This document shows positions 28,716 through 45,559 of a DNA stretch of 64,000 nucleotides, piece by piece; position 1 is the stretch's first letter; each line of letters begins with the position of its first letter. Under the pieces are notes generated by a model. The model was not told the origin of the DNA. It did no database searches and saw nothing but the letters and a program-made list of their open reading frames with translations. Location: positions 32,001 through 96,000 of IMG/VR virus record IMGVR_UViG_3300034063_000636; one strand, written 5' to 3'. The DNA is from a virus. Both the position numbers and the translations under genes were made by a program.

Positions 28716-28940
28716 ATGTTAGTTAAGATAAAAGACAATGATGATCTTGCAAGAGATGTGAAGTCAAGAGCAATCTTGAATGTTAATAAAAACGTTTTGC
28801 TTAAAGATCAGATGTATCAAGAGAAACTAAAGAAACAACAAGAGGTAGAGTCCTCAATAAATACTCTCAGAGAAGAAGTATCTTCGATTAAAGGCGACAT
28901 TTCTAAGATTCTAGAAATGTTGAGTTCCAGAGGTAAATAA
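28716..28940 (+). CDS. small coiled-coil virion-associated protein
   Basis: VKIKD..DL.RD..S.AILN followed by a coiled coil; this type of gene usually follows VrlC-like genes in T4-like phages. Confidence 0.65.
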   Translation: MLVKIKDNDDLARDVKSRAILNVNKNVLLKDQMYQEKLKKQQEVESSINTLREEVSSIKGDISKILEMLSSRGK

Positions 28941-29983
28941 TGGCGAACACAAATATTTCACATGTCCAATTAGTGAACACCTTTAATGAGTGGCGTGCAG
29001 CAACTAATGACTTAATTGAAGATAGAAATATTCTTCGAAATGCTCATTATGTCAAAGATAATTCTTCTTTTGACATTGCAAACGGAACCATGACGATCAG
29101 CCGTTCAAGCAACGGCACAGTTCTAACAGTCGCAAACTCTGGTAACGTTGCTGTCGGTGGTTGGGTCAATGCAAATACTCTTGCAACAAACTCAGAACTC
29201 TGGTTTGGATTAAGAACTAGCGACATTGCTTCTGTCATTAAGATGACACAAGAGCCAGCAAATACTGTAGAGGCTGGAAACGCAACTTGGTATACTGCAA
29301 ATCAGAAATCAAATAATCCATATTACGGATTCACCTTCCACTCCAATGGCACAATGGTCATTGCGAATGAAGAGGAGAATGCAACTCAAGTGGTTGTCAT
29401 CGGTGACTCTGCTTACAATGTTTCTCCGACCAAAAATGGTACGATTTTTGGTGTCAGTACAATCGTTGGAACATCAGCACCAACAACAGGATATGAATCT
29501 GGTTGGCAACCCGTTCTAGACCTTCGAAGCAATTCTCTATTCATCATGCCAGTTGCTTCTGCAAATGCAGGCAATTGTTTGTATTACAACGTAACAACTG
29601 GCGAAATCACATACTCAACTGCGCCAAGCGGTAATGTTCTTGCTGGTGATCCAATTCTAATCAACACTGCAGTTGATTCTGCAAACACTGTAAGACTAAA
29701 TGTGTCAAACTGGTTCAAGTATACATTGACAGGATCATCTGGCAATCGTAATTTGACATTCACAAATCCTCCTGCTTCTGGCAATGCATATACGTTCACA
29801 ATGATTGTGATTCAAGATGGAACAGGCGGTAAAACTCCAAATTGGACAAATACAGTGTATTGGGCTGGTGGACAAATTCCTCCGCCAACAACTGACGCAA
29901 GCGCACAGGATATCTGGACATTTACCACATATGATGGTGGAACAACATATATTGGCACACTTGCTGTTAAAGACGCGAGATAA
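28940..29983 (+). CDS. short tail fibre / adhesin-carrier protein
   Basis: N-terminal NTFNEWRAATN fibre anchor; C-terminal LTFTNPPASG..QDGTGG..W..VYWAGG..DIWTF.TYDGG domain, similar to the C-terminus of 47971..49983. Confidence 0.7.
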   Translation: MANTNISHVQLVNTFNEWRAATNDLIEDRNILRNAHYVKDNSSFDIANGTMTISRSSNGTVLTVANSGNVAVGGWVNANTLATNSELWFGLRTSDIASVIKMTQEPANTVEAGNATWYTANQKSNNPYYGFTFHSNGTMVIANEEENATQVVVIGDSAYNVSPTKNGTIFGVSTIVGTSAPTTGYESGWQPVLDLRSNSLFIMPVASANAGNCLYYNVTTGEITYSTAPSGNVLAGDPILINTAVDSANTVRLNVSNWFKYTLTGSSGNRNLTFTNPPASGNAYTFTMIVIQDGTGGKTPNWTNTVYWAGGQIPPPTTDASAQDIWTFTTYDGGTTYIGTLAVKDAR

Positions 29984-29985
29984 TC

Positions 29986-31935
29986 ATGCCGAATAGTTTT
30001 GGCTTAAACAAAACTTGGATTCCTGGTCCTTCCAGAGGAACAACGACATTCAATACTACTGGCAATATTAATATTGCTTATGGTAGAAATAAAACCACAG
30101 TTTCAGGTCGTGGTGGTTCTGGTTCAGGTGCTTCATACAACACTGTTCCAGGAACAACTAATCCCACTACATTTCCATACACACCAGCATCGTATAATAC
30201 GGTTCCTGGAAATTTAAATCCAACAACTTATCCGTTTACTCCAGCATCATATAATACAGTGCCTGGAACGACAAATCCTACAACGTTTCCCTTTGTTCCT
30301 GCTAGTTATAATACTGTGCCTGGAAATACAAATCCACCAAACTATCCTTACACACCAGATAGTTACAACACTGTTCCTGGAACAACCAATCCAACAGTGT
30401 ATCCATATACTCCAGAAAGTTATAACACTGTTCCAGGAAATAGTAATCCGCCAAATTATCCATTTACTCCTGAATCATACAATACAGTGCCAGGAAACTT
30501 AAATCCAACCAATTATCCATACACACCAGCTTCGTACAATACAGTTCCTGGAAACACTAATCCAACTAACTACCCATTCGTTCCTGCATCATATAATACT
30601 GTTCCTGGTAATTTGAATCCAACAGTGTATCCATATACACCAGAGAGTTACAACACTGTTCCTGGAAATACAAATCCAACAAACTATCCATATACACCAG
30701 CTTCCTATAATACTGTTCCTGGAAATACTAATCCAACTAACTATCCATATACCCCAGAAAGTTATAACACAGTTCCTGGAAATACAAATCCAACGAATTA
30801 TCCGTACACTCCAGAGAGTTATAACACTGTAACAAACTATCCATATACTCCAGGCTCATATAACGCACCAACAGGTGTTAGTTGGAATTTGACTGCAATC
30901 GGACCAAGTTACGGTGGTGTTGCAACAATAATTGGTGACGGATTTGATACAAATTGCCCATCACCATATAGCACACCAACTCCGTTTGGTCCAGACGAAT
31001 TCACATATGAATGTTTCCCAGCTGGAAATACTGAAAATCCTGCGAGTTATAACACAGTTACCAATTATCCATATACACCTGCGTCGTATAATACAGTTCC
31101 AGGAAATGTAAATCCAACCAATTATCCGTTTACCCCTGCATCGTACAATACAGTCCCAGGAAATTTAAATCCAACGAACTATCCTTATGTTCCTGCAAGT
31201 TATAACACTGTTCCTGGCAATTTAAATCCAACCAATTATCCATACACACCAGCATCGTATAATACAGTTCCTGGAAACTTAAATCCAACGAACTATCCTT
31301 ATGTTCCTGCAAGTTATAACACTGTTCCAGGAAATGTAAATCCGACAGTGTATCCATATACTCCAGAAAGTTATAATACAGTTCCTGGTAACTTGAATCC
31401 GACTAATTATCCGTTTACTCCTGCATCGTATAATACGGTTCCTGGTAACAGCAATCCACCAACTTATCCATACACACCAGCGTCTTACAATACTGTTCCT
31501 GGGACAACAAATCCAACCAATTATCCGTATACACCAGCATCGTATAACACAGTATCAGGAAACTTAAATCCAACCAATTATCCATTCGTTCCTGCAAGTT
31601 ATAACACGGTTCCAGGAACGACAAATCCACCGTCGTATCCATTCGTGCCTGCAAGTTATAATACTGTGCCAGGAACAACAAATCCAACAGTGTATCCATT
31701 CGTCCCTGCAAGTTATAATACTGTGCCAGGAACAACAAATCCAACAGTGTATCCATTTACTCCAGGAGTTCCTGGAACACCAACAACTGTTCTTGGTGTA
31801 TACTTCCCAGGCGGTGTTGCTGGCGTTGCTCCATATGTTCCAGAAACTGTAGTGAATTATTGGGACTATCCAGATAATGCGACCTATCCAGTCACTGTTC
31901 CAACAGGTGCATACATAGTAGTGAAGATTGAATAA
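29986..31935 (+). CDS. Pro/Thr/Tyr/Asn repeat adhesin with symmetric 19-aa repeats around a 2-Cys central domain
   Basis: 649 aa = 49-aa N-term + 12x19 + 13 + 63-aa centre + 13 + 12x19 + 55-aa C-term. Confidence 0.8.
   Translation: MPNSFGLNKTWIPGPSRGTTTFNTTGNINIAYGRNKTTVSGRGGSGSGASYNTVPGTTNPTTFPYTPASYNTVPGNLNPTTYPFTPASYNTVPGTTNPTTFPFVPASYNTVPGNTNPPNYPYTPDSYNTVPGTTNPTVYPYTPESYNTVPGNSNPPNYPFTPESYNTVPGNLNPTNYPYTPASYNTVPGNTNPTNYPFVPASYNTVPGNLNPTVYPYTPESYNTVPGNTNPTNYPYTPASYNTVPGNTNPTNYPYTPESYNTVPGNTNPTNYPYTPESYNTVTNYPYTPGSYNAPTGVSWNLTAIGPSYGGVATIIGDGFDTNCPSPYSTPTPFGPDEFTYECFPAGNTENPASYNTVTNYPYTPASYNTVPGNVNPTNYPFTPASYNTVPGNLNPTNYPYVPASYNTVPGNLNPTNYPYTPASYNTVPGNLNPTNYPYVPASYNTVPGNVNPTVYPYTPESYNTVPGNLNPTNYPFTPASYNTVPGNSNPPTYPYTPASYNTVPGTTNPTNYPYTPASYNTVSGNLNPTNYPFVPASYNTVPGTTNPPSYPFVPASYNTVPGTTNPTVYPFVPASYNTVPGTTNPTVYPFTPGVPGTPTTVLGVYFPGGVAGVAPYVPETVVNYWDYPDNATYPVTVPTGAYIVVKIE
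30133..31767 (+). repeat. coding 57-nt tandem repeat (SYNTVPGxxNPxxYPYTPA): 24 full and 2 truncated units in two arms
   Basis: Counted from the translation; synonymous positions vary among units. Confidence 0.95.
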
Positions 31936-31937
31936 AC

Positions 31938-31966
31938 TTGAAATTTTTTATAGATTGTAGTATAAT
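31938..31966 (+). promoter_or_regulatory. sigma70-type promoter for the oxygenase/glycosyltransferase operon
   Basis: TTGAAA-N17-TATAAT; SD GGAG at 31979-31982 before the ATG at 31990. Confidence 0.75.
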
Positions 31967-31989
31967 GATTTAAATCTTGGAGTTATATT

Positions 31990-32580
31990 ATGCCATCATT
32001 CACAAAGTACATAAAACCACTTCCTCAGTTTTGTATTGTTGATAATTATTTCACTGAAGAAGAAGTCGATAAAATTATTGATCTTGAAGAATTGCAAGAA
32101 TTCAGTGAGGGTAAGATGGGAACTGGTCCATCAACAACCACTAATAAACAATATCGCGACAGTGACATTTCTTGGTTGAAATGGAGCCCAGATTCTAGAT
32201 GGATATTTGATAAATTTGGTTCATTGATGGGTCAAGTAAACCACTCTCACTTCATGTATGATATTGATGGTTTTGATGCGTTTCAATACACCAAGTATAA
32301 ACCAAAGCAACATTATAATTGGCACTTTGATGCCTTCACAGAATTTCATGGCTTCGAACGAAAGATTAGTGCAGTGGTAATTTTATCAGACCCCAAAAAA
32401 TATTCTGGTGGAGAATTTCAAATTGTTGCGGATGGAAATATAGAAAAACCGCACTCAATAAAACCACCAAAAGGTTCTGTAATATTCTTTGCTTCTTGGA
32501 TGCCGCATAGAGTTGCGCCAGTTAAATCTGGAGTTCGTAAATCTTTGGTTGCTTGGATTATGGGTAAAAGAGTATGCTAA
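31990..32580 (+). CDS. 2OG-Fe(II) oxygenase, prolyl 4-hydroxylase/PKHD-like
   Basis: YNWHFD (HxD)..RKIS..YSGGEF..G.VIFF.S..PHRV.PV..G.RKSLVAW. Confidence 0.9.
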   Translation: MPSFTKYIKPLPQFCIVDNYFTEEEVDKIIDLEELQEFSEGKMGTGPSTTTNKQYRDSDISWLKWSPDSRWIFDKFGSLMGQVNHSHFMYDIDGFDAFQYTKYKPKQHYNWHFDAFTEFHGFERKISAVVILSDPKKYSGGEFQIVADGNIEKPHSIKPPKGSVIFFASWMPHRVAPVKSGVRKSLVAWIMGKRVC

Positions 32581-33302
32581 ACAAATTGATTCGTGTTTTT
32601 AAAAATGATGTGATTGAATTTTACTGTCACCCAAAGTTTGAGAATGTCATTCCTGAACCAAAGCCAGCAATCAAATATTTGCCTGAGTGGTTTAGAATTA
32701 TTCCTCCAGTTTCAAAGACTCGGAGAGATGAATACAATGACTTTGCGATGAATGCTAAAAAGTGTTTCCCAATGATTGATGCAATGTCTTTGGGATATAC
32801 AATACCATTGTGTGGTGATATTCATGTCATGGTCAATAACGATATGACAGAAATGAAGTATACAAGCCCACCAGAAATGAAATTGGCAGATAGCCATAAC
32901 GTTGAACAAATTGGTGGAGAGTCAGCCCCAGGATTTCCAATCAATCCGATCAAGTTTATCAATTATTGGATTATTAAGACTGCTCCAGGCTGGTCGACAT
33001 TGTTTATTCCTCCAATTAATCATGTTGGAACTCCATTTACTTGTTTGGGTGGATTAGTTGACACTGATAGATATCCAAAGGAAGTTAATTTTCCAGCAAT
33101 TTGGAATCAGCCTGGTTTTGATGGATTAATTCGTGCAGGAACTCCTCTGGTGACTGCAATCCCAATTAAGAGAAATTCATTTCCGAAAAAACCAAAAGTC
33201 AGAAAAATTAAAGATAAAGAATTTAATGAGATTGAATTGATTCGAAAGAAACAAGTGACCAGAAAAAATGTATACACAAATGAATTGAGAGATGAACGAT
33301 GA
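32574..33302 (+). CDS. hypothetical protein, DUF6065-like (possible dUTPase-like fold)
   Basis: P.PA..LPEWF..KKC.P.IDAMS.GY.IP..W.IKT.PG.S.LF..P.N..G.VDTD..NFP..I.AGTPL...IP.KR. Confidence 0.6.
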   Translation: MLNKLIRVFKNDVIEFYCHPKFENVIPEPKPAIKYLPEWFRIIPPVSKTRRDEYNDFAMNAKKCFPMIDAMSLGYTIPLCGDIHVMVNNDMTEMKYTSPPEMKLADSHNVEQIGGESAPGFPINPIKFINYWIIKTAPGWSTLFIPPINHVGTPFTCLGGLVDTDRYPKEVNFPAIWNQPGFDGLIRAGTPLVTAIPIKRNSFPKKPKVRKIKDKEFNEIELIRKKQVTRKNVYTNELRDER

Positions 33303-34117
33303 AATTTTTTGATTTTTTTAAACCTAAAGAAACATTTAATGATTCGATTGACGATGAGATTAAGGAAATCTCAAACACTTCTGTTGTTCAATCGACTATT
33401 GGTAGAAACAAGTTAGAATTTATCGATTCATCAGAACTCGTATTTGCTAGTTTACCAATTCAATTAGCAAAAGATGTTCCTGTAAACTCGCAAGCACATG
33501 TAGAAAAGCTCGGAAATAAGTTCACATTTCCAGTCTGCCCTGGCATGTTTGACTATTCGCGACTTGGCTACATTGTTCCAGCCTGGTCAGACTATCATTT
33601 TAAGATAAATAAAGCTGGATGTGCTGCATTAGTTGGTGGGGGACAAAAAGCATCTCCATTTAAGCCTCCAGTTCCGATGGCAACTGATGTTGTCGATGGT
33701 CTTTTTAAATTAAGCGACGGAATTCCACTTAAAACATATAATATCAATTCTCCTTGGAAAATATTTTCTTACGACAAAGATATATCAGCATTACTTCTTC
33801 CTGCTTGGTATCATGCAGACGTAGAGTTTTTAGATAATTTTTATGTTTATCCTGGAGTTGTTGATTATAATACATTTCATACTATGAATGTCATTCTTTC
33901 TCCAAAAAGAAAGTGTGAGTATACGATTAAAGCGGGAGATCCTTTATTACACGTCATTCCGTTTTATAATAAACAAATTGAATGTGGTTATGGACCACCA
34001 AACATAGAACAAAAAAGCATATTATCATACGATCCTAAAATCCACGAAACGCAATTTTATCGAAAGAATCATATGATTAAAAAGAGTTTCGCACTAGAAG
34101 AAAGCAATAAAGAATGA
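33299..34117 (+). CDS. hypothetical protein, distant paralog of 32574..33302
   Basis: CPGMFDY..GYIVPAW..SPW..PGVVD..IKAGDPL.HVIPF shares the pattern of the upstream gene. Confidence 0.6.
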   Translation: MKFFDFFKPKETFNDSIDDEIKEISNTSVVQSTIGRNKLEFIDSSELVFASLPIQLAKDVPVNSQAHVEKLGNKFTFPVCPGMFDYSRLGYIVPAWSDYHFKINKAGCAALVGGGQKASPFKPPVPMATDVVDGLFKLSDGIPLKTYNINSPWKIFSYDKDISALLLPAWYHADVEFLDNFYVYPGVVDYNTFHTMNVILSPKRKCEYTIKAGDPLLHVIPFYNKQIECGYGPPNIEQKSILSYDPKIHETQFYRKNHMIKKSFALEESNKE

Positions 34118-35061
34118 AGATATTTGTAAGCATATGCTCATACAGAGACCCTCTGTTAGTATACACTCTAAAAGCATTAATGCAGACCAAGTCTGCAATT
34201 ACAGAAGTTGTGTACGGCATATTTGAACAAAATGAAAAAGAAAATAGTTTAGAAACTCTATTTCCAGATCTAGTCGCCAGAAGCGATGTAAAATATAAAC
34301 GAATCGATCCACAATACTCGGAAGGTGTTGGTTGGGCTCGAAATATTAATGCTCTCCAGTTAACTGACGAGGATTTTTATTATCAGATCGACTCTCACAT
34401 GGTTTTCGATAAGAATTGGGATCGCGATTTAATTAACGATTATAAAGAAGGCTGTAGAGCGATCGAGTCAAACAGAGTCATTATCAGTTCGAACTGTAAA
34501 AATTTCGAGATGGTCGATGGTAATGTCGTTTTAGAGCATGGCATGGACTATACATGCAGAGCAAGATTCTATCAGTTTAATCCAAATCTTTGGCTTTTTG
34601 CTCACGGCGAACATATTCCTCCAACTGAAACCGTGATGCCAGCGATACACATCTTTGCTGGAAATATGTTTACACACTCTGATTGGGTTCGAAATGTCGG
34701 AATCAATCCTAGAATATTCTTTCATGGAGAGGAGCAAGCGATAACTCTCTCATCGTTTGCTGCAGGATATCGATTTTTCCACGGAAAGAGGATGTCGTGC
34801 TATCACTATAAAGGATCTAATGAACATACATCAAAGCAGGACTTTAAACCTGTTGTTCCTTTAGAGATCATTGAAGAGAGAAAACGTAGATCAGAAATTG
34901 AATTTAGAGCATTTTTAGACTCTCTCGAGGACGATTTACTCGAGGAATACCGAGTCTACTCTGGCGTGAATTATATAAATAAGAAAATAGAAGAACGTGC
35001 CATAACCCGAGTGATTAAACCAAGCATCGATATTGACTGGGAAGTAGGCGATTCTGAATAA
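34114..35061 (+). CDS. GlcNAc-transferase-like glycosyltransferase (GT60/Gnt1-like, GT-A fold)
   Basis: IFVSICSYRDP..G(V)GWAR..E.FYYQIDSHM.F..WD (DxH motif)..FFHGEE..S..AG..YHY. Confidence 0.8.
   Translation: MKIFVSICSYRDPLLVYTLKALMQTKSAITEVVYGIFEQNEKENSLETLFPDLVARSDVKYKRIDPQYSEGVGWARNINALQLTDEDFYYQIDSHMVFDKNWDRDLINDYKEGCRAIESNRVIISSNCKNFEMVDGNVVLEHGMDYTCRARFYQFNPNLWLFAHGEHIPPTETVMPAIHIFAGNMFTHSDWVRNVGINPRIFFHGEEQAITLSSFAAGYRFFHGKRMSCYHYKGSNEHTSKQDFKPVVPLEIIEERKRRSEIEFRAFLDSLEDDLLEEYRVYSGVNYINKKIEERAITRVIKPSIDIDWEVGDSE
34974..34981 (+). promoter_or_regulatory. late promoter TATAAATA inside the glycosyltransferase 3' end, upstream of the long-fibre operon
   Basis: Perfect consensus about 105 nt before the ATG at 35087. 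Confidence 0.6.
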
Positions 35062-35086: not shown

Positions 35087-35419
35087 ATGCCATACGCAGA
35101 GTTAACGGTTGATCAGGGCACAACTTTCGAAACTTCTATAGATTTAGTTGGCGATGATGGCGCTGCGATCAATATCGCAGGGTGCGTTTTCTTGGGTCAA
35201 GTTCGCAAATCTTATTATTCTTCCAATGTAACTGCAAATCTGACAATTACCACTTTAAGTAATACAGGTGGAAATCTAATCATGTCTTTAAATTCAGCAG
35301 TCACTGCAAACATTAGAGCAGGTCGTTATCTTTATGACGTAAAGATGACTGATACAGATAACATAACAACTCGAGTCGTAGAAGGTATTCTAACTGTGAC
35401 ACCACAGGTGTCCAGATAA
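35087..35419 (+). CDS. small Ig-like fibre attachment protein
   Basis: ELTVDQGTTF..QVRKSY..LIMSL...TANI.AGRYLYDV..TRVVEG.LTV.PQV; immediately precedes the giant fibre. Confidence 0.7.
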   Translation: MPYAELTVDQGTTFETSIDLVGDDGAAINIAGCVFLGQVRKSYYSSNVTANLTITTLSNTGGNLIMSLNSAVTANIRAGRYLYDVKMTDTDNITTRVVEGILTVTPQVSR

Positions 35420-38400
35420 TGAAGATAACGATTACGAATAATAATCAGATCGGTAAGGTTACTTTCGGCAAAGTGACGAGAGTCGGCGATCTATATGCAA
35501 ACGATATTCTAGATCTTATAAACACAGTCGTTTATAGATCAGGCTCAACGATGACAGGCAACTTAAATGTTGCTGCGACAATTATTACGCAAAACGTAAT
35601 TCCGTCTGTCAATAATACATACAATCTTGGTAGTCCAACTTATCGATACAAAGATGCATACTTTGGTGGTAACACTGTATACATCGGCGACTCTATACTA
35701 TCAGCACAAGCAAACAGTCTTTTAACAAATACATTTATTGCTACAACATCATTTGTTAGTGGTGGCTTAAACGTTCTAGACCAAGCAAATGCTGCATATG
35801 CTGAAGCCAACTTAAAACTCGGTCTTGGTGGCGGTACAATTACAGGAAGTCTTACTGTAACTGGAAACCTCGAAGTTCTCGGTAATACAACAACACTTAA
35901 TGTTGAAACATTGTCACTCGAAGACAATGAAATTATTCTCAATTCAAATGTAACTGGTCCACCATTACTTGACTCGTTCATAACGATCAATCGTGGATCA
36001 ATGACAAATGCTGTTCTTAAGTGGGATGAAAGCACTGATCAATGGAAGTGGTCGGATGGCAATGGCGTATATTATGCACTAGATTCTTCTTTGGGCGCAT
36101 ATGCTCAAGCCAACGGAGCGTATGCACAAGCCAATGGTGCCTATGCTCAAGCAAACGGAGCCTATTCTCAAGCCAATGGTGCATTTGCGCAAGCAAACGG
36201 AGCATATGCTCAGGCTAACGGTGCTTACGCCCAAGCAAACGGAGCGTATGCGCAAGCAAATGCAGCAAGCGATAATGCAAACACGAGAGTTCTAAAAGCT
36301 GGCGATACAATGACTGGTCAGCTGAACATCAGTTCAGGCGGTCTTGTTGTCACTGGCAATATTGTTACAACTGGTGCAAGTGGCGACATAACTGGCGTCA
36401 ATACCATTTATGCTGGAACATTCTCAACAACAGCTGGATTAAATGTTACTGCTCAAGCAGCAAATGCTTACGAGCAAGCCAATAATGCTAGAACAACAGC
36501 AAATGGTGCATACTTACAAGCCAACGGCGCTTATGCACAGGCTAATGGGGCTTACGCTCAGGCAAATGGCGCATACGCTCAGGCAAATGGTGCTTATGCG
36601 CAAGCCAATGGTGCCTATGCACAAGCGAATGGTGTTTATGCTCACGCTAATGGAATTTATGATGTTGCAAACGCTGCATATGCTCAAGCCAATGCAGACT
36701 ATCAACCTGCTGTAACAAGATTTGATGTGACCTCTAGCGGAACATCAGCATACAGATTCGATCAATATGGCTCAATCGTTGACGATCCAACACTTTATGT
36801 TCGTGCTGGTGAAACTCTTGCATTCAATTTGAATGTAGTTGGGCATCCATTCATGATCCGCCAATCAAATGGTGGAGCAAATTATAATACTGGATTGACT
36901 CACGTTGAAACTACAGGTGTAATTTCTACAGGGGCGAGTGCACAAGGTAAAACAACAGGTGTTCTTTATTGGAAAGTTCCATTTGAACTTCAAGGCAACA
37001 CTTACGTTTATCAATGTCAAGTGCATTCTGCGATGGTTGGCAATATTGTTATTGAGCCACCATCAACGATCATTTATGCTCAAGCGAATGTTGCATTTGA
37101 TACTGCCAATGGTGCGTACTCACAAGCAAATGGTGCATATAGCCAAGCCAATGGCGCTTATGCACAAGCCAACGGTGCGTATGCGCAGGCAAATGGTGCC
37201 TATGCTCAAGCCAACTCAGCATATGCTCATGCAAACATAGTTTACGCTCAAGCCAACGCAAGTTTTGATCAAGCGAATACTGCTAGAACAACAGCAAATG
37301 ATGCATATGAGCAAGCAAACACTGCAAGAAGCACAGCCAACGATTCATATGCTCAAGCGAATACGGCACGTGATACTGGCAACAACGCATATGCTCAAGC
37401 AAACACCGCTCGCGATACAGCAAATGATTCTTACGCTCAAGCAAACACCGCTAGAGACACTGGTAACAATGCTTATCTGCAAGCCAATACTGCTAGAGAC
37501 ACTGGCAACAACGCATATGCTCAGGCGAATACCGCTAGAGATACTGGTAACGATGCATATAGTCAAGCGAACACTGCTCGCAATACTGCTAATGATGCAT
37601 ACTTACAAGCCAATAATGCATACGCTGAAGCCAATATAAAACTTAACATCTCTGGTGGATCGATCACTGGTGATTTGATCGTTTCTGGAAATCTAGAAGT
37701 TCTAGGAAACAGCACAACATTAAATGTTGAAACTCTTGCAATTGAAGACAATGAGATTATTCTCAACTCAAATGTAACTGGATCACCAACACTTGATGGC
37801 TTTATTACAATCAATCGTGGCAGCAACACAAATGCTTCGATTAAGTGGGATGAAAATACGAATCAGTGGAAGTGGACGGATGGTGATACATTCTTCTATG
37901 CATTTGACTCTGCTTTAGATGCTTATGCTCAAGCAAATACTGCACGTGATCAAGCCAATACCGCTAGAGAAACTGGCAATGATGCCTATGGTCAAGCCAA
38001 CACTGCAAGAACAACAGCAAACGACGCTTACCTTCAAGCCAATACTGCTCGCGACCAGGCAAATACGGCACGTGATACTGGCAACAATGCTTACGCTCAA
38101 GCGAATACAGCTCTTGATACCGCTAATGGTGCATACGCTCAAGCAAATGGCGCCTATGCTCAAGCCAACGGAGCGTATGCACAAGCAAATCTAGCATTTG
38201 GTCAAGCCAATGGTGCATACGCTCAAGCAAATGGTGCTTATGCGCATGCTAATATTGTTTACGCTCAAGCAAATGCTGCATTCAATCAGGCAAATACTGG
38301 AAATGACTCTGCAAATGCAGCCTATGCACAAGCAAATACTGCACGCGATACTGGCAACAATGCATATGGACAAGCGAACACAGCTCGCACAACTGCCAAT

Positions 38401-41400
38401 GACGCATATGCTCAAGCAAATACTGCTCTAGATACGGCAAACGGCGCATATGCCCAAGCAAATGGGGCTTATGCTCACGCAAATATTGTATATGCTCAAG
38501 CAAATACGGCTCGTGATACTGCAAATGCCGCTTATGGTCAAGCAAATGGTGCATTCGATCAAGCGAACGCTGCTTATAATCAAGCAAACACTGCCAGAAC
38601 AACTGCGAATGACGCTTATGGTCAGGCAAATAGCGCATTTAATCAAGCGAATGCAGCATATGACAAAGCCAATACTGCTCTAGACACAGCGAATGGAGCA
38701 TATGCCCAAGCAAATGGAGCCTACGCTCACGCTAACATTGTCTACGCTCAAGCCAATAATGCATACGATACAGCCAATCTAAAACTTAATATTGCTGGCG
38801 GTACAATTAATGGTTCATTGAACGTTTCTGGTAATTTAAGCATAACTGGTAATACAACATATTACAATGTGGCAACTTATGCTGTTGATGACCCATTAAT
38901 TTATCTTGGCGCAAATAATATTCTGAATGATATTGTTGATATAGGATTTATTGCCACGAAAAATACCAGCGGCAACTTGAGTCATACTGGGTTTGCTCGC
39001 GATGCTGGAGATGCTACTTGGTATTTGTTTGATAATCTATTAGATTCTGGTCACCAAAATAACATAGTCGACTTCGCAAATACCACACTCGCAACACTTC
39101 GCGCAAACATTGCTGCAAATAGCATACTCTTGATGGGTAATGTTGTTGCGACTCAAGCAAATCTAACACTCGCTCATAATCAAGCCAATACTGCAAATAA
39201 TACTGCGAATGGTGCATATTCTCAAGCCAATGGAGCCTATGCTCACGCTAATATAGTTTATGCACAAGCCAATGCTGCATTTAATCAAGCCAACGCTGCT
39301 TATGATAAGGCAAATGGCGCATTTGATACTGCTAATGGTGCATATTCTCAAGCGAACGGTGCTTATGCCCACGCGAATATTGTTTATGCTCAGGCTAACG
39401 CTGCATATGATAATGCAAATACCAGAGTTCTAAAATCTGGCGATACAATGACAGGCAATCTCAATGTGAGTGCCTTCATCATTACTAATAATGTTCAGCC
39501 AAATTTAAATGTTACATACGACCTTGGTTCACCAACCAAGAGATATAAGAATCTTTATCTTTCAAATAATGCACTACATTTGGGTGATGCGGTAATCACA
39601 TCAAATGGATCAACACTAGTTGTTTCTGGTGTTGAAATTGATGGCAGTGGAAATCTAATCGCTGCGTTTGATTCTTATGACCAAGCAAATACTGCTAGAG
39701 ATACTGCCAATGCTGCATACAATCAAGCAAACGGTGCGTTCAATCAGGCGAACGGTGCATATGCGCATGCTAACATAGTATATGCTCAGGCAAATGCTGC
39801 TTATGACCAAGCCAATACTGCTCGTGGAACTGCTAACGATGCGTATGCTCAAGCAAATACTGCACGTGATACTGGTAACAATGCATATGCTCAAGCCAAT
39901 ACTGCTCGAGACACAGCAAACGATGCTTATGGTCAAGCAAATACCGCCAGAACAACCGCGAATGATTCTTATAATCAAGCAAACACAGCGCGCACTACAG
40001 CCAATGATGCTTATGGTCAGGCAAACACAGCGCGTGGAACTGCGAATGATGCATATGGTCAAGCAAATGCTGCTTATCTCCAAGCCAATAATGCATATGA
40101 TGAGGCAAATCTAAAAGTTAATATTTCTGGTGGAACCATTTCTGGTGATTTGGTTGTTTCTGGTAATCTTTCTGTACTCGGAAATAGCACCACACTTAAT
40201 GTTGAAACTTTAAAAATTGAAGATAACGAAATTATCCTCAATTCGAATGTTACTGGATCGCCAACTCTTGATAGTTTCATCACAATCAATCGCGGCAGTT
40301 CAACAAACGCTGTCATTAAGTGGGATGAGAATACTGATCAATGGAAGTGGTCAGACGGCGACACATTCTTCTATGCGTTTGATTCTGCGTTGGATGCTTA
40401 TGCTCAAGCAAATACGGCACGCGCGACCGCCAATGATGCATATGGACAAGCCAACGTTGCTCGTGCGACTGCCAATGACTCGTATTTGCAAGCGAACACT
40501 GCTCGCGATACTGCAAATGCATCTTACGATCAAGCGAATACTGCAAGAACTACTGCCAATGACGCATACGGTCAAGCGAATACAGCTCGTACGACCGCTA
40601 ACGATTCTTATGCTCAAGCCAATACTGCAAGAAATACGGCTAACGACTCTTACGCTCAGGCGAATACTGCTCGAACAACAGCTAATGATGCTTATGCTCA
40701 GGCGAACACAGCACGCACTACTGCGAATGATTCCTATGCGCAGGCAAACACTGCTCGTAATACAGCCAATGATTCTTACGCTCAAGCAAATACCGCTCGC
40801 GCTACGGCAAATGATGCATACGGACAAGCGAACGCTGCGTATAACACAGCAAATACTGCAAACGCAACGGCAAATCTAGCATATGCTCAAGCCAATTCAA
40901 ATTACCAACCTGCAGTCACACGACTCAACGTAACAAACTCTGGCTTCTCTGCATATTTACTTGATCAATATCCTGGCAATAATCCAACTGTATACGTTAG
41001 AGGCGGTGAAACATTAGCGTTCGATCTAAACGTTTCTGGTCACCCATTCATGATTCGTCAGTCAAGCGGCGGAGCAAATTATAACACTGGATTGACTCAC
41101 GTTTCTTCAACTGGTGTTGTTTCTACTGACGGTAGCGCTCAGGGGCAAGTTTCAGGAACATTGTATTGGAAGGTTCCGTATAATATTGTTGGCAACACTT
41201 ATGTTTATCAGTGTTCAATTCATGGTGGTATGGTTGGCAACATTGTTATTGAACCATCAGTGATTGTTGCTTATGCTCAAGCGAATGCAGCATTTGATAC
41301 CGCCAACGGTGCATATGCCCATGCAAATATTGTCTATGCACAAGCAAATGCTGCATACAATGATGCAAACGGCGCATATGCGCAAGCCAACGGTGCTTAT

Positions 41401-42831
41401 GCTCAAGCAAATGGAGCTTATTCTCAAGCCAATGGTGCCTATGCACAGGCTAACGGTGCATACGCTCAAGCGAATATCGTTTATGCTCAAGCAAATGCAG
41501 CGTATGAAAAGGCAAATGCGCCAATCACCGTTAAGGAAATTTATGCTGGCAATTCAACAGTAGTCAATACTTACACCAATATCAATACAATTCAATTTGA
41601 TTCTGACTCTGGAATGGCAGTTGTAAATGCTGCTTCGAACACAGTCACGATTCAGTTGAATAGTACATTCAAGAATTGGAACGTAGATGGAAATGCTGGA
41701 CTTGTTGCAGTTGGTCTTGATACTGTAAACTTTATTGCTGGCAGTGGAATTTCGATTGCTGCAAACAATAATGCATCACCAAAATCTATTACATTCACCA
41801 GTACTGGTGGTGGCGGTGGCGCAGCTAACGTTATCGTTAAAGACGAAGGAACAACTCTTACATCAGCTGTAACTTCGATTGACTTTACTGGTGGTGGTGT
41901 AACTGCAACAGCAAGTGGAAGTAATGTAACAATTTCTGTTCCAGTTGGATTGTCAAATACAATCATCAAAACTGTTTCTTATACTTCCACAAATGCTGCA
42001 GCAAATTTAACGTATGCTCTACCATTAACACCATCAGATCCTTCATATATCTTTGTGATTAAGAACGGTATTGTTCTTACACCAAATACGGATTATAGCC
42101 TCAGTGGAAATACACTTACTGTAATCGAATCTGGTGCGGCAAACGATGCGATCGAAGTTCGTTATTTTGATCAAGTTAATATTGTAGAGTATCCAAATAC
42201 AAAAATTGAAGTTGATTCAAACACTGTCGCTTCGCAAACGAATACATTCTATGTCACGAGTAATGTTGCTGCAATAAGCCGACTCTCTATCTCTAAGAAT
42301 GGTTTGTTGCTCACACCAAATCTACACTTCACAGTGACTGGAAATACTGTAACGTTAAATACAGCTGCTGAGATTAACGATGTATTGACCTTTACACATA
42401 TTCGTGATTTGGGACCATTAGAAGGTTCTGGTTTAACAGAATACAACTATAACACAAGCACATCTTCTGTTGAAACAGTCGATTCTTGGTCTAAGAATAC
42501 CTATCGCAGCGGTAAGTATCAAGTTCAAGTTGAAAGTGGCGCTGGATATTATGCCACTGAAATCATGATTATTCATGATGACTCTACTACAAATTTAATA
42601 CAGTATGGAACATCTTCTTTTGGTTCGAATGTTGGCGTGTTTTCTTCTGACATAAGCGGAAGCAACGTTCGACTATTGTTTACTGCAACTGATTCCACTT
42701 CGTTTGTAACTTATAATAGAGTTCTTTTGACAAAGAGATCTTCTGAATCGTTACCGACAGATTTGATGACTGGAAGCGATGCGTATGATCTCATGTTGAC
42801 TCTACCATTTAACCCAACAGACCTCAATTAA
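35419..42831 (+). CDS. giant long tail fibre (2470 aa): Ala-rich heptad coiled coils, repeated beta knots, two cupredoxin-like domains
   Basis: Many AYAQANG and AYAQANTARDTAND repeats; LKAGDTMTG motifs; three copies of the GNLEVLGN.TTLNVETL.IEDNEIILN..KWDE.T.QWKW.DG domain; two GHPF...YQCxxHxxMVG domains. Confidence 0.85.
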   Translation: MKITITNNNQIGKVTFGKVTRVGDLYANDILDLINTVVYRSGSTMTGNLNVAATIITQNVIPSVNNTYNLGSPTYRYKDAYFGGNTVYIGDSILSAQANSLLTNTFIATTSFVSGGLNVLDQANAAYAEANLKLGLGGGTITGSLTVTGNLEVLGNTTTLNVETLSLEDNEIILNSNVTGPPLLDSFITINRGSMTNAVLKWDESTDQWKWSDGNGVYYALDSSLGAYAQANGAYAQANGAYAQANGAYSQANGAFAQANGAYAQANGAYAQANGAYAQANAASDNANTRVLKAGDTMTGQLNISSGGLVVTGNIVTTGASGDITGVNTIYAGTFSTTAGLNVTAQAANAYEQANNARTTANGAYLQANGAYAQANGAYAQANGAYAQANGAYAQANGAYAQANGVYAHANGIYDVANAAYAQANADYQPAVTRFDVTSSGTSAYRFDQYGSIVDDPTLYVRAGETLAFNLNVVGHPFMIRQSNGGANYNTGLTHVETTGVISTGASAQGKTTGVLYWKVPFELQGNTYVYQCQVHSAMVGNIVIEPPSTIIYAQANVAFDTANGAYSQANGAYSQANGAYAQANGAYAQANGAYAQANSAYAHANIVYAQANASFDQANTARTTANDAYEQANTARSTANDSYAQANTARDTGNNAYAQANTARDTANDSYAQANTARDTGNNAYLQANTARDTGNNAYAQANTARDTGNDAYSQANTARNTANDAYLQANNAYAEANIKLNISGGSITGDLIVSGNLEVLGNSTTLNVETLAIEDNEIILNSNVTGSPTLDGFITINRGSNTNASIKWDENTNQWKWTDGDTFFYAFDSALDAYAQANTARDQANTARETGNDAYGQANTARTTANDAYLQANTARDQANTARDTGNNAYAQANTALDTANGAYAQANGAYAQANGAYAQANLAFGQANGAYAQANGAYAHANIVYAQANAAFNQANTGNDSANAAYAQANTARDTGNNAYGQANTARTTANDAYAQANTALDTANGAYAQANGAYAHANIVYAQANTARDTANAAYGQANGAFDQANAAYNQANTARTTANDAYGQANSAFNQANAAYDKANTALDTANGAYAQANGAYAHANIVYAQANNAYDTANLKLNIAGGTINGSLNVSGNLSITGNTTYYNVATYAVDDPLIYLGANNILNDIVDIGFIATKNTSGNLSHTGFARDAGDATWYLFDNLLDSGHQNNIVDFANTTLATLRANIAANSILLMGNVVATQANLTLAHNQANTANNTANGAYSQANGAYAHANIVYAQANAAFNQANAAYDKANGAFDTANGAYSQANGAYAHANIVYAQANAAYDNANTRVLKSGDTMTGNLNVSAFIITNNVQPNLNVTYDLGSPTKRYKNLYLSNNALHLGDAVITSNGSTLVVSGVEIDGSGNLIAAFDSYDQANTARDTANAAYNQANGAFNQANGAYAHANIVYAQANAAYDQANTARGTANDAYAQANTARDTGNNAYAQANTARDTANDAYGQANTARTTANDSYNQANTARTTANDAYGQANTARGTANDAYGQANAAYLQANNAYDEANLKVNISGGTISGDLVVSGNLSVLGNSTTLNVETLKIEDNEIILNSNVTGSPTLDSFITINRGSSTNAVIKWDENTDQWKWSDGDTFFYAFDSALDAYAQANTARATANDAYGQANVARATANDSYLQANTARDTANASYDQANTARTTANDAYGQANTARTTANDSYAQANTARNTANDSYAQANTARTTANDAYAQANTARTTANDSYAQANTARNTANDSYAQANTARATANDAYGQANAAYNTANTANATANLAYAQANSNYQPAVTRLNVTNSGFSAYLLDQYPGNNPTVYVRGGETLAFDLNVSGHPFMIRQSSGGANYNTGLTHVSSTGVVSTDGSAQGQVSGTLYWKVPYNIVGNTYVYQCSIHGGMVGNIVIEPSVIVAYAQANAAFDTANGAYAHANIVYAQANAAYNDANGAYAQANGAYAQANGAYSQANGAYAQANGAYAQANIVYAQANAAYEKANAPITVKEIYAGNSTVVNTYTNINTIQFDSDSGMAVVNAASNTVTIQLNSTFKNWNVDGNAGLVAVGLDTVNFIAGSGISIAANNNASPKSITFTSTGGGGGAANVIVKDEGTTLTSAVTSIDFTGGGVTATASGSNVTISVPVGLSNTIIKTVSYTSTNAAANLTYALPLTPSDPSYIFVIKNGIVLTPNTDYSLSGNTLTVIESGAANDAIEVRYFDQVNIVEYPNTKIEVDSNTVASQTNTFYVTSNVAAISRLSISKNGLLLTPNLHFTVTGNTVTLNTAAEINDVLTFTHIRDLGPLEGSGLTEYNYNTSTSSVETVDSWSKNTYRSGKYQVQVESGAGYYATEIMIIHDDSTTNLIQYGTSSFGSNVGVFSSDISGSNVRLLFTATDSTSFVTYNRVLLTKRSSESLPTDLMTGSDAYDLMLTLPFNPTDLN

Positions 42832-42876: not shown

Positions 42877-43371
42877 ATGCCAACAACATTACAATTTAGA
42901 CGTTATGGAACTGCAGCCACTGCATCAGTTACTGGTGCAAATGGTGAATTGACGATTGATACTGATAAAGAAACAGTCGTCGTTCATGACGGATCCACGG
43001 CTGGTGGGTATGCGCTCGTAAGAGATGGCGCTGCAACGATCAGCGACACGTTCGGAAATCTTCGTGGAATTCCGATTTCTGGTTCAGAAAAATCTACCAG
43101 TTATACGCTCGCTGCAAATGATGTTGGTCGTTTGGTGATCGTAACAACTAGCGGAAGCATTACAGTTCCGAACACCACATTTGGTGGTGGTAATGTTGTT
43201 TCAGTTTACAATAACACAAGCAGCAACGTTGTGCTTACATTGAGCACTGCGGCAGCATATGTTTCTGGCAATAATACAAATAGAACATCTCTTAATCTAG
43301 CAACTCGCGGCATTGCAACAGTTCTTTATATTAGTTCAAATTCTTGCGTAATTACAGGAAGCGTATCATAA
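42877..43371 (+). CDS. fibre connector with Mtd_N-like N-terminus
   Basis: MPTTLQFRR..T......G..GELTIDTDK.TVVVHDGSTAGG; C-terminal small beta domain SYTL..ND.G..ITVP. Confidence 0.7.
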   Translation: MPTTLQFRRYGTAATASVTGANGELTIDTDKETVVVHDGSTAGGYALVRDGAATISDTFGNLRGIPISGSEKSTSYTLAANDVGRLVIVTTSGSITVPNTTFGGGNVVSVYNNTSSNVVLTLSTAAAYVSGNNTNRTSLNLATRGIATVLYISSNSCVITGSVS

Positions 43372-45043: not shown

Positions 45044-45219
45044 TGGCAAAACCAAAACAATATCAAGTTCAAGAATTACAAACAGATCTTGGAACAATAC
45101 ACACTCAAGCAAACACTGCTTATGGTCAAGCCAACGCTGCATATGCTGCAGCGAATAATGCATATGCTGCAGCAAATAGTGCTAGTGGTGGATTCGCAAA
45201 AGTCTTTTTCAGTTTATAA
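45043..45219 (+). CDS. mini connector peptide (58 aa)
   Basis: Below the track cutoff: MAKPKQYQVQELQTDLGTIHTQANTAYGQANAAYAAANNAYAAANSASGGFAKVFFSL*; ATG overlaps the upstream TAA; same heptads as the giant fibre. Confidence 0.8.
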   Translation: MAKPKQYQVQELQTDLGTIHTQANTAYGQANAAYAAANNAYAAANSASGGFAKVFFSL

Positions 45220-45231
45220 CAGGACATTACA

Positions 45232-45558: not shown

Positions 45559-45559
45559 T

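What the first reader, a model, noticed from the sequence alone, without database searches (positions are those of the whole stretch)
29986..35061. Candidate phage hydroxyproline/O-GlcNAc modification system for a virion fibre
Seen: right after the Pro/Thr-rich repeat adhesin is a four-gene operon with overlapping reading frames: a P4H-like 2OG-Fe(II) oxygenase, two paralogous DUF6065-like proteins and a GT60-like transferase (SYRDP, QIDSH, FHGEE). Known: in Dictyostelium, the prolyl hydroxylase PhyA and the GT60 enzyme Gnt1 hydroxylate and then GlcNAcylate a Skp1 proline; trypanosomatid GT60 enzymes GlcNAcylate Thr in mucins. Inference: the phage hydroxylates and glycosylates its own extensin/mucin-like stalk for rigidity, protease resistance or shielding, with the DUF6065-like pair as accessory factors.
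Basis: partly seen in the sequence, partly recalled or inferred. Interest (0 to 1): 0.82.

Follow-up and report, generated by a model that had tools for sequence, protein, structure and literature searches.

The report
Phage fibre-protein hydroxylase and glycosyltransferase cassette
An uncultured T4-like water phage encodes, inside its tail-fibre genes, a repeat protein followed by an iron oxygenase, two dUTPase-fold proteins and a protein-type sugar transferase; the set recurs in dozens of related phages, so the phage probably decorates its own fibre protein, though no chemistry has been shown.

Summary
At 29986-35061 a 649-aa repeat protein is followed by four tightly packed genes. These are a 2OG-Fe(II) oxygenase (PF13640), two paralogous DUF6065-like proteins and a GT60-type glycosyltransferase (PF11397).

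In 58 of 60 informative IMG/VR loci found through the transferase, all three other genes are present. In 25 of 25 informative loci found through the repeat protein's C-terminus, the oxygenase lies directly downstream. This linkage makes the repeat protein the most likely substrate.

The invariant core is the repeat protein, the oxygenase and the two DUF6065 proteins. The transferase is facultative. Some relatives carry a sulfotransferase instead, some fuse the transferase to an FkbM methyltransferase, and some have the transferase alone. An obligatory hydroxyproline-GlcNAc relay is therefore not shown.

Across the family the repeats are Asn/Tyr/Pro/Thr-rich with almost no Lys, His or Asp. Pro or Asn are therefore the plausible hydroxylation sites.

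The DUF6065 pair has the dUTPase fold and keeps relics of dUTPase motifs III and IV. Its role is unknown.

Earlier follow-ups in this scan reached similar readings on other genomes. Iyer et al. 2010 had already noted the dUTPase-fold/dioxygenase link in cyanophage Syn9.

The parts
28940..29983 (+). Tail-fibre protein whose C-terminal ~100 aa match tail-fibre families. It lies directly upstream of the repeat protein and is syntenic in relatives.
   Evidence: phrog_9017 1.6e-13 and phrog_7760; conserved upstream neighbour in most related loci.
29986..31935 (+). Asn/Tyr/Pro/Thr-rich repeat protein (649 aa), the presumed substrate. The N-terminal ~50 aa and C-terminal ~50 aa are conserved. Between them are 12+1 units of 19 aa, a 63-aa core with two Cys, and 1+12 units.
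   Evidence: Family termini are aligned. There is no Pfam or PHROG hit and no homologue in cultured phages.
31938..31966 (+). Sigma-70-like promoter site, TTGAAA-17 nt-TATAAT, in the 54-nt gap before the oxygenase gene.
   Evidence: Best site of the region at 11 of 12 positions, but the total number of sites is no higher than in shuffles. A -10-like element sits at the same place in many relatives. It is a consensus match only.
31990..32580 (+). 2OG-Fe(II) oxygenase of the P4H/PKHD type (196 aa).
   Evidence: PF13640 1.4e-18; phrog_61 3.9e-40. H112-x-D114, H173 and R183 are invariant in 21 orthologues. Best solved relatives are PKHD hydroxylase 3dkq (4e-8), PPHD 4iw3 and vCPH 5c5t (6e-5).
32574..33302 (+). 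DUF6065-like protein a (242 aa) with a dUTPase-superfamily fold, invariant Cys64 and a conserved G-x-V-D-T-D-x-Y motif.
   Evidence: phrog_7084 7.5e-48. AF2 model pLDDT 88.7. VIA-align Z 10.4; the top 22 rows are almost all dUTPases or dCTP deaminases, two being herpesvirus proteins pp71 and ORF10. hhalign against E. coli Dut aligns motifs III-IV, E 3.5e-4. 44 of 55 relatives hit PF19541.
33299..34117 (+). DUF6065-like protein b (272 aa), a diverged paralogue that lacks several residues conserved in a (His108, Asp165).
   Evidence: phrog_7084 2.1e-17; joint alignment A2; BLASTP against paralogue a E 0.002; DUF6065 profile 1.1e-13.
34114..35061 (+). GT60-type polypeptide glycosyltransferase (315 aa), apparently without a signal peptide or lectin domain (read from the sequence and model; neither was tested with a predictor).
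   Evidence: PF11397 8e-32. D93-S-H95 is invariant in 22 homologues. AF2 model pLDDT 91.9. The top Foldseek hits are all GT27 polypeptide GalNAc-transferases, E about 1e-11.
35087..35419 (+). Small protein resembling a tail-fibre assembly protein (LtfC-like); conserved downstream neighbour.
   Evidence: phrog_3304 4.4e-18 and phrog_1084 2.3e-21; syntenic in most loci.
35419..42831 (+). Giant 2470-aa fibre protein with alanine-zipper repeats. It gives genomic context and is an alternative substrate.
   Evidence: PF11839 3e-23; homologues downstream in relatives.

Best explanation
This is a virion-protein tailoring cassette in the tail-fibre region of an uncultured T4-like aquatic myovirus.

Proposed mechanism (inferred):
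1. The adjacent Asn/Tyr/Pro/Thr-rich repeat protein is made in the host cytoplasm.
2. The 2OG/Fe(II) oxygenase hydroxylates residues in its repeats. Pro is most likely and Asn is the alternative.
3. The GT60 enzyme, which resembles polypeptide GalNAc/GlcNAc transferases, adds a HexNAc from a host UDP-sugar. The acceptor is either the new hydroxyl or Thr/Ser directly.
4. In related phages the same core instead carries a sulfotransferase, or a GT60-methyltransferase fusion. The decoration therefore varies while the core stays.
5. The two dUTPase-fold DUF6065 paralogues form a heteromer. One looks catalytically better preserved than the other. They belong to the hydroxylation core, either as a substrate-docking or nucleotide-binding subunit, or as a further enzyme of unknown activity.

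Shown: the gene families, intact catalytic motifs, the folds and the conserved linkage. Inferred: the substrate, the residue, the sugar, the order of steps and the role of the DUF6065 pair.
For: - Families and motifs are confirmed.
- The GT60 model is closest to mucin-type polypeptide GalNAc-transferases. GT60 is known from protein O-GlcNAc transfer to Hyp or Thr (PMC6939170, PMC8724618).
- Oxygenase, D65a, D65b and GT60 occur together in 58 of 60 informative GT60-anchored loci.
- A repeat protein with the same conserved termini lies directly upstream of the oxygenase. This holds even where GT60 has moved about 3 kb away.
- The reciprocal search with the repeat protein's C-terminus gave 25 of 25 informative loci with the oxygenase directly downstream.
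- The variable additions are a sulfotransferase (PF03567) and an FkbM methyltransferase fused to GT60. These fit tailoring of a hydroxyl or a sugar, not DNA chemistry.
- The central regions of 34 distinct family members are rich in N (17.5%), Y, P (11.5%) and T. K, H and D are each below 1%, which leaves Pro and Asn as conventional acceptors.
- The whole neighbourhood is baseplate and fibre genes.
- Iyer et al. 2010 (PMC2938197) predicted hydroxylation followed by sulfation of co-encoded collagen-like or tail-collar proteins in bacterial operons.
Against: - There are no biochemical or proteomic data, and the phage is uncultured.
- The repeat protein is not shown to be in the virion.
- The oxygenase is nearest to PKHD-type enzymes of unknown substrate.
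- GT60 and the oxygenase each occur without the other in some relatives. A Hyp-to-GlcNAc relay is therefore not required.
- The dUTPase fold of the core pair hints at nucleotide chemistry.
- Many of the related loci are near-duplicates, so the counts overstate independent events.
- Gene adjacency could reflect shared regulation only.
Confidence: 0.6

Rival explanations
1. The cassette and substrate are as proposed, but the chemistry differs from the first reader's. The oxygenase hydroxylates Asn (or another residue) rather than Pro. GT60 glycosylates Thr/Ser directly, independently of hydroxylation, as the trypanosome and Dictyostelium mucin-type GT60 enzymes do.
For: - Asn is the commonest residue of the repeats, and the dipeptide YN is enriched 2.5- to 6-fold in nearly all family members.
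- GT60 occurs without any oxygenase next to a 2042-aa fn3-repeat protein.
- The oxygenase core occurs without GT60.
- GT60 includes Thr-specific enzymes (PMC8724618).
Against: - Known protein Asn hydroxylases belong to other families (JmjC/FIH and AspH types; general knowledge).
- This enzyme matches the P4H-type PF13640 model and hits viral collagen prolyl hydroxylase 5c5t and PPHD 4iw3.
- Pro is present in nearly every 25-aa stretch of the repeats.
Confidence: 0.25
2. The enzymes tailor a different target. Candidates are another fibre protein (for example the 2470-aa giant fibre or the Gly-rich proteins) or a host envelope component. The repeat protein would then be only a neighbour.
For: - The region holds many other large fibre proteins.
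- Two further 2OG oxygenases lie at 57458-59033 beside other fibre genes.
- GT60 alone follows an fn3 giant protein in L061.
Against: - The repeat protein is the one neighbour that stays immediately upstream of the oxygenase. This holds when GT60 moves and when the other neighbours differ.
- The enzymes appear to lack a signal peptide and would act in the cytoplasm (read from the sequence; no predictor was run).
Confidence: 0.1
3. This is a nucleotide or DNA modification pathway. An oxygenase, dUTPase-like nucleotide enzymes and a glycosyltransferase would make a hydroxylated, glycosylated base, as in base J or T4 glucosyl-hydroxymethylcytosine.
For: - The DUF6065 pair has the dUTPase/dCTP deaminase fold (Z 10.4) and relics of motifs III and IV, including the catalytic-Asp position.
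- T4-like phages are known for hypermodified DNA (general knowledge).
Against: - The oxygenase matches the P4H/PKHD-type models. No TET/JBP or AlkB family was among its Pfam hits.
- The transferase is GT60, with polypeptide GalNAc-transferases as its nearest folds.
- Relatives add a sulfotransferase or an FkbM methyltransferase.
- The genes sit among fibre genes and track the repeat protein.
- dUTPase motifs I, II and V were not recovered.
Confidence: 0.05
4. The cassette makes a small-molecule or peptide secondary metabolite. Iyer et al. 2010 proposed this for the Syn9-type cyanophage clusters of dioxygenases, halogenases and a dUTPase-fold protein.
For: The same dUTPase-fold family with a conserved Cys sits in the cyanophage S-RIM44 cluster. 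That cluster has two Trp halogenases, several 2OG oxygenases and a JmjC protein (PMC2938197).
Against: - No peptide synthetase or precursor-peptide machinery was seen among the annotated neighbours.
- The cassette is tightly linked to a large repeat protein with fibre-gene neighbours.
- The transferase is of the polypeptide type.
Confidence: 0.05

Closest known systems
Skp1 hydroxyproline glycosylation pathway of Dictyostelium and Toxoplasma (prolyl 4-hydroxylase PhyA plus GT60 enzyme Gnt1; PMC3515798, PMC6939170)
   Same: A cytoplasmic P4H-superfamily 2OG oxygenase is paired with a soluble GT60 enzyme acting on a protein.
   Different: - The oxygenase here is PKHD-like and not shown to be a PhyA/EGLN orthologue.
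- The presumed substrate is a long repeat protein with dozens of sites, not a single Pro of Skp1.
- Coupling is not obligatory in the phage family.
- A dUTPase-fold pair is part of the core.
- No further Skp1-type glycosyltransferase was seen in the cassette.
Mucin-type polypeptide alpha-GlcNAc transferases (GT60) of Trypanosoma cruzi and Dictyostelium, and GT27 polypeptide GalNAc-transferases (PMC8724618)
   Same: GT-A fold, D-x-H motif, repeat-rich Thr/Pro substrates. The nearest solved folds are GT27 enzymes.
   Different: The phage enzyme is cytoplasmic (no membrane anchor or lectin domain seen; no predictor run) and prokaryotic-viral. Its donor and acceptor are unknown.
Chlorovirus PBCV-1 prolyl 4-hydroxylase (vCPH, PDB 5c5t) with the virus's Pro-rich repeat proteins
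   Same: A virus-encoded P4H-type enzyme presumed to act on the virus's own repeat proteins. There is weak sequence similarity, 6e-5.
   Different: That is a eukaryotic virus. It has no linked GT60 or dUTPase-fold partners (general knowledge). Similarity is lower than to bacterial PKHD hydroxylases.
Syn9/S-RIM44-type cyanophage cluster of tandem dioxygenases, Trp halogenases and a dUTPase-fold protein with a conserved cysteine (Iyer et al. 2010, PMC2938197)
   Same: The same dUTPase-fold family (conserved Cys) is linked to classical 2OG oxygenases within T4-like phage structural regions.
   Different: Here there are no halogenases or JmjC proteins. There are two paralogues of the dUTPase-fold protein, a GT60, and a dedicated repeat protein upstream. 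The 2010 paper read the clusters as metabolite synthesis.
Mycobacteriophage virion glycosylation by phage-encoded glycosyltransferases (the phrase occurs in papers listed; the primary paper was not read here)
   Same: A phage encodes glycosyltransferases that are thought to decorate its own virion proteins.
   Different: The transferase families and the targets (capsid and tail tube) differ, and there is no hydroxylase step (general knowledge, not tested here).

Membership tests
CAZy GT60 / Pfam PF11397 (polypeptide GlcNAc transferase) | Match to the family model above its curated cut-off | tested here: met
   111.5 bits against a cut-off of 21, E 8e-32. All 120 listed homologues carry PF11397.
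CAZy GT60 / Pfam PF11397 (polypeptide GlcNAc transferase) | GT-A fold with a D-x-H/D-x-D metal motif, related to GT27 but without the ricin-like lectin domain | tested here: met
   D93-S94-H95 is invariant in 22 sequences. Model pLDDT 91.9. The top Foldseek hits are all GT27 catalytic domains. The protein is only 315 aa, with no extra domain.
CAZy GT60 / Pfam PF11397 (polypeptide GlcNAc transferase) | Transfers alpha-GlcNAc from UDP-GlcNAc to Hyp or Thr of a protein | not testable with these tools
   Needs an enzyme assay or glycoproteomics.
Prolyl 4-hydroxylase-type 2OG-Fe(II) oxygenase (PF13640) | Family model match and H-x-D...H iron triad plus a basic 2OG-binding residue | tested here: met
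   68 bits against a cut-off of 27. H112, D114, H173 and R183 are invariant in 21 orthologues.
Prolyl 4-hydroxylase-type 2OG-Fe(II) oxygenase (PF13640) | Specific relationship to enzymes proven to hydroxylate peptidyl proline | tested here: inconclusive
   The best solved and NCBIfam relatives are PKHD-type hydroxylases (3dkq 4e-8; NF003974 far below its cut-off) whose substrates are not named in their PDB or NCBIfam entries. Next come PPHD 4iw3 (5.5e-7) and vCPH 5c5t (6e-5).
DUF6065 (PF19541) | Match to the family model | tested here: met
   Protein a scores 22.8 bits, just under the cut-off of 26.6. However, 44 of 55 of its relatives match, best 7e-14. The ESM Atlas structure neighbours are 'DUF6065 family protein' at TM 0.82. 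Protein b is reached only through phrog_7084 and the profile.
dUTPase / dCTP deaminase superfamily | The beta-barrel fold of trimeric dUTPases | tested here: met
   VIA-align Z 10.4-5.9 for the top 22 rows. These are almost all dUTPases or dCTP deaminases; two are herpesvirus proteins pp71 and ORF10. The next row drops to Z 4.8. Foldseek E 3e-4.
dUTPase / dCTP deaminase superfamily | The five conserved dUTPase motifs, including the C-terminal Gly-rich motif V | tested here: not met
   hhalign recovers only motifs III-IV. Protein a residues 156-198 align with E. coli Dut residues 83-123, E 3.5e-4, probability 37%. The C-terminus is helical with a conserved Tyr, and no Gly-rich arm is present. 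It shares the fold and is probably homologous, but it is not a canonical dUTPase.
Skp1-type hydroxyproline-GlcNAc pathway | The GT60 step depends on, and always accompanies, the prolyl hydroxylase step | tested here: not met
   At gene level the two are separable. L087-L089 and L094-L095 have the oxygenase and DUF6065 pair but no GT60 within about -6 to +3 kb (0.9 kb downstream in L087). L060 and L061 have GT60 but no oxygenase. Dependence in this particular phage cannot be tested.
Syn9-type cyanophage dioxygenase cluster (Iyer et al. 2010) | A dUTPase-fold protein with a conserved Cys, co-clustered with classical 2OG oxygenases in a T4-like phage | tested here: met
   Cys64 is invariant. The S-RIM44 homologue lies beside 2OG oxygenases, a JmjC protein and halogenases. 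The description is in PMC2938197. Halogenases and JmjC are absent here.

The most novel reading that the evidence does not exclude
The two DUF6065 proteins form a single-site heterodimer derived from dUTPase, analogous to the tandem-domain herpesvirus dUTPases. This heterodimer would be a new kind of protein-modifying enzyme. For example, it could use the retained motif III aspartate to transfer a nucleotidyl or other group to the Tyr/Asn-rich repeats, or act together with the oxygenase. On this reading, many aquatic T4-like phages, and the haloarchaeal HF1-like viruses that also carry the family, would chemically rebuild their host-recognition fibres in a way not yet known for any virus.
Probability: 0.12. 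Interest if true: 0.88.

Novelty: new variant of a known kind. Interest (0 to 1): 0.68.

Why it matters
T4-like cyanophages and their marine relatives carry many 2OG-Fe(II) oxygenase genes. Their role has been guessed at since at least 2010, as 2OG/nitrogen signalling, DNA repair or metabolite synthesis (PMC3037559, PMC2938197). This cassette gives one of these oxygenases a concrete, testable substrate: a hypervariable repeat protein encoded right next to it among the fibre genes.

If confirmed, it would show that abundant aquatic phages hydroxylate, glycosylate or sulfate their own appendages. That bears on host recognition, virion stability and the phage-host arms race. It would also give a first function to DUF6065, a dUTPase-fold family found in bacteria, phages and archaeal viruses. 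Finally, it places the P4H plus GT60 pairing, known from protist oxygen sensing, in a prokaryotic virus.

Tried and rejected
Contexts therefore came from the search for related loci instead.
- The DNA-level search of cultured phages found nothing.
- The single-protein scan of viral contigs with GT60 found nothing. It worked only with an alignment.
- Alignments A3 and A4 were too diverse for pattern scans.
- The genome search 'relatives' is not available for a virus record.
- Bacterial (Planctomycetota) neighbourhoods of DUF6065 showed no conserved partner and gave no functional clue.
- The HF1 halovirus context shows only that the gene lies beside the tail module.
- The repeat protein's termini look by eye like the ends of a Gly_rich_2 domain. 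hhalign did not support this, so it is not claimed.
- A DUF6065 profile against PDB sequences found no relative. Only fold comparison and a direct hhalign with E. coli Dut showed the dUTPase link.
- No paper mentions DUF6065, and no relevant paper combines GT60 with phage.
- The T4 late-promoter motif TATAAATA is not enriched in the window.
I could not test whether the conserved residues cluster in space.

Full report
**What is there**

The window is bases 32001-96000 of a 108-kb IMG/VR virus record, estimated 63% complete. The genes before the finding are T4-type baseplate and tail genes: baseplate hub, wedge subunits and gp6-like proteins. The nearest cultured relatives by the gp6-like protein are Methylophilales phage Melnitz and Pelagibacter phage Mosig, at about 41% identity. 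No cultured phage matches the region at the DNA level.

- 29986-31935: the repeat protein (649 aa).
- 31990-32580, 32574-33302, 33299-34117 and 34114-35061: four genes overlapping by 7, 4 and 4 nt.

The cassette is flanked upstream by a protein with a tail-fibre C-terminal domain (28940-29983, phrog_9017). Downstream are an LtfC-like tail-fibre assembly protein (35087-35419) and a 2470-aa alanine-zipper fibre.

**Families**

*Oxygenase.*
- It matches PF13640 at 1.4e-18 and phrog_61 at 3.9e-40.
- H112-x-D114, H173 and R183 are invariant in 21 orthologues, so it looks active.
- Its closest solved or curated relatives are PKHD-type hydroxylases (3dkq 4e-8; PiuC; NF003974, well below its cut-off). 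Next are Pseudomonas PPHD (4iw3) and the chlorovirus collagen prolyl hydroxylase 5c5t at 6e-5.
- It is 35-38% identical to the many '2OG-Fe(II) oxygenase' genes of cultured cyanophages. The function of those genes is still open (PMC3037559).

*Transferase.*
- It matches PF11397, the GT60 family, at 8e-32.
- D93-S-H95 is invariant.
- A confident model (pLDDT 91.9) has mucin-type polypeptide GalNAc-transferases (GT27) as all its top solved matches. This is as expected for GT60 (PMC8724618).

*The two middle proteins.*
- They are paralogues. Both hit phrog_7084, BLASTP between them gives E 0.002, and a DUF6065 profile finds both.
- Protein a falls just under the PF19541 cut-off. However, 44 of 55 relatives match it, and the Atlas structural neighbours are DUF6065 clusters.

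**The DUF6065 pair has a dUTPase fold**

- The model of protein a (pLDDT 88.7) matches dUTPases and dCTP deaminases at Z 10.4 to 5.9 over the top 22 rows. Two of those rows are herpesvirus proteins, pp71 and ORF10. The next row drops to Z 4.8. Foldseek agrees weakly.
- A direct profile comparison with E. coli Dut aligns residues 156-198 of protein a to Dut 83-123. That stretch is dUTPase motifs III and IV, including the catalytic-Asp position (E 3.5e-4, probability 37%).
- Motifs I, II and V were not recovered, so it is not a canonical dUTPase.
- Protein a keeps an invariant Cys64 and near-invariant His108 and Asp165. Protein b has lost several of these. This suggests an active and a degenerate partner.
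- Fused tandem forms of about 480 aa exist. That fits a heteromer and recalls the tandem-domain herpesvirus dUTPases that also appear among the fold hits.
- Iyer et al. [quoted passage not shown]
- I found the same arrangement in cyanophage S-RIM44. There the DUF6065-like gene lies next to two Trp halogenases, several 2OG oxygenases and a JmjC protein.
- The family is also a conserved gene of HF1-like haloarchaeal viruses. In HF1 it lies beside the tail module.

**Conserved linkage**

This is the main new evidence.

*Search anchored on GT60.* An alignment of GT60 homologues retrieved 67 IMG/VR loci.
- In 58 of them the oxygenase, D65a, D65b and GT60 are all present.
- Seven are cut by a contig end.
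- Only two (L060 and L061) truly lack the other three genes.
- In most loci the ORF directly upstream of the oxygenase has the same conserved N-terminal (~50 aa) and C-terminal (~50 aa) segments as the window's repeat protein.
- This stays true where GT60 has moved about 3 kb upstream (L007-L012, L066).

*Reciprocal search anchored on the repeat protein's C-terminus.* This gave 26 loci, 8 of them on contigs not seen before.
- All 25 with downstream sequence have the oxygenase directly after the repeat protein, followed by D65a and D65b wherever the sequence reaches that far.
- Five of these (L087-L089, L094-L095) have no GT60 within about -6 to +3 kb (only 0.9 kb downstream in L087). L094/L095 have a Sulfotransfer_2 gene between the oxygenase and D65a; L087-L089 have an unassigned gene of similar size there.

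*Other variants.*
- Some loci have both the sulfotransferase and GT60 (L016/L017; L014 has a similar upstream gene without a Pfam hit).
- In L062-L065 GT60 is fused to an FkbM methyltransferase.
- In L061 GT60 stands alone right after a 2042-aa fn3-repeat protein.

*Reading.* The invariant core is therefore the repeat protein, the oxygenase and the two DUF6065 proteins. GT60, the sulfotransferase and the methyltransferase are interchangeable decorations. Many loci are near-duplicates, so these are not 58 independent events. Even so, 34 distinct repeat-protein sequences were seen.

**The repeat protein**

- In the window it consists of 12 units of 19 aa plus one short unit, a 63-aa core with two Cys, and one short unit plus 12 units.
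- Across the family the unit length varies. The leading periods found were 7, 10, 14, 18, 19, 22, 23, 27 and 36 aa.
- The enzymes are far better conserved than the repeats. In L003, for example, the enzymes are 70-75% identical and the repeat protein 54%.
- The dipeptide YN is enriched about 2- to 6-fold in the family members.
- The pooled composition of the central regions is N 17.5%, A 13.1%, Y 12.6%, P 11.5% and T 10.8%, with K 0.1%, H 0.1% and D 0.6%.
- Of the residues that protein 2OG oxygenases are known to hydroxylate, only Pro and Asn are available, and both occur in almost every 25-aa stretch.
- The enzyme's family favours Pro. The composition does not exclude Asn.
- The protein has no Pfam or PHROG match and no homologue in cultured phages. 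That it is a virion fibre component is inferred from its neighbours only.

**How it most likely works**

The best reading is a tailoring cassette for the adjacent repeat protein (confidence about 0.6).
- The oxygenase hydroxylates the repeats.
- GT60 adds a HexNAc, either to the new hydroxyl or directly to Thr/Ser. In relatives the product is instead sulfated or methylated.
It is not required by the gene distribution.
- The DUF6065 pair belongs to the hydroxylation core rather than to the sugar step, because it persists without GT60. Its role is open: docking subunit, nucleotide-binding partner or new enzyme.

A sigma-70-like site (TTGAAA-17 nt-TATAAT, 11 of 12 positions) precedes the oxygenase gene. 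Similar -10 elements sit at the same place in many relatives. The enzymes may therefore be transcribed separately from the substrate gene. This is a consensus match only.

**Rivals**

- *DNA or nucleotide modification.* The dUTPase fold suggests it. The oxygenase and transferase families, the sulfotransferase and methyltransferase variants and the fibre-gene context all speak against it.
- *Secondary-metabolite synthesis.* This was the 2010 reading of the cyanophage clusters. Here no peptide-synthesis machinery was seen among the annotated neighbours.
- *Another fibre protein or a host structure as target.* This cannot be excluded, but it does not explain why this particular neighbour is always kept.

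**Novelty**

- The parts are known kinds: viral P4H (PBCV-1), the protist P4H plus GT60 pairing, phage virion glycosylation in mycobacteriophages, and the dioxygenase/dUTPase-fold association noted in 2010.
- I found no paper describing this cassette or its link to a dedicated repeat protein.
- Other follow-ups in this scan reached similar conclusions on other genomes. My results were obtained independently, except that one of those notes pointed me to the Iyer paper, which I then read.
- I class the finding as a new variant of a known kind, with an unexplained and potentially novel component in the DUF6065 pair.

Noticed in passing
window 57458-58066 and 58458-59033: There are two more 2OG-Fe(II) oxygenase genes (PF13759 1.2e-21; PF13640 2.4e-14). 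They lie between the Gly-rich fibre-like proteins and a protein of more than 1512 aa with Laminin_G_3 repeats (59464-63999). They have no DUF6065 or GT60 partner. The phage therefore has three oxygenases, all inside its appendage gene region.
   Followed up: partly
window 43373-57167: Five proteins carry Gly_rich_2 domains (PF21722, up to 3.9e-73). They lie in a stretch of raised G+C (up to 0.53) and strong GC skew. A small protein with an Mtd_N (major tropism determinant N-terminal) domain precedes them at 42877-43371.
   Followed up: no
L094:6768-7469 (also L095; L016:1860-2552 and L017): A Sulfotransfer_2 gene sits inside the cassette of related phages. In L094/L095 it accompanies loss of GT60 and in L016/L017 it occurs with GT60. 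L087-L089 and L014 have a gene of similar size at the same place without a Pfam hit.
   Followed up: partly
L062:2022-3692 (also L063-L065): GT60 is fused to a C-terminal FkbM-type methyltransferase domain (556 aa). The gene order is GT60, oxygenase, D65a, D65b.
   Followed up: partly
L061:3779-10897: A GT60 gene stands alone directly after a 2042-aa fn3-repeat protein, with no oxygenase or DUF6065 genes nearby.
   Followed up: partly
L043:5643-6347: One related phage has a third, more diverged DUF6065-like gene (37% identity to protein a) about 2 kb upstream of its cassette.
   Followed up: no
proteins P0134, P0146, P0206, P0217, P0260, P0266: Metagenomic proteins of 450-500 aa contain two DUF6065 domains in tandem. 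They are natural fusions of the kind of pair encoded separately here.
   Followed up: partly
L002 (Halophage HF1 48119-49003) and about 50 related haloarchaeal virus records: A DUF6065-like gene (30-36% identity) is conserved in HF1/HF2/HRTV-type haloarchaeal tailed viruses. In HF1 it lies next to the baseplate and tail genes, with no oxygenase or glycosyltransferase annotated among its neighbours.
   Followed up: partly
window 31938-31966 and the same gap in L003, L005, L007, L019, L026, L028, L036, L041 and others: A sigma-70-like -35/-10 pair, or at least a TATAAT-like element, recurs between the repeat-protein gene and the oxygenase gene.
   Followed up: partly
window 29986-30135 and 31783-31932: The conserved ends of the repeat protein look by eye like the first and last strands of a Gly_rich_2 domain, with the repeats inserted between them. 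hhalign gave no support.
   Followed up: yes
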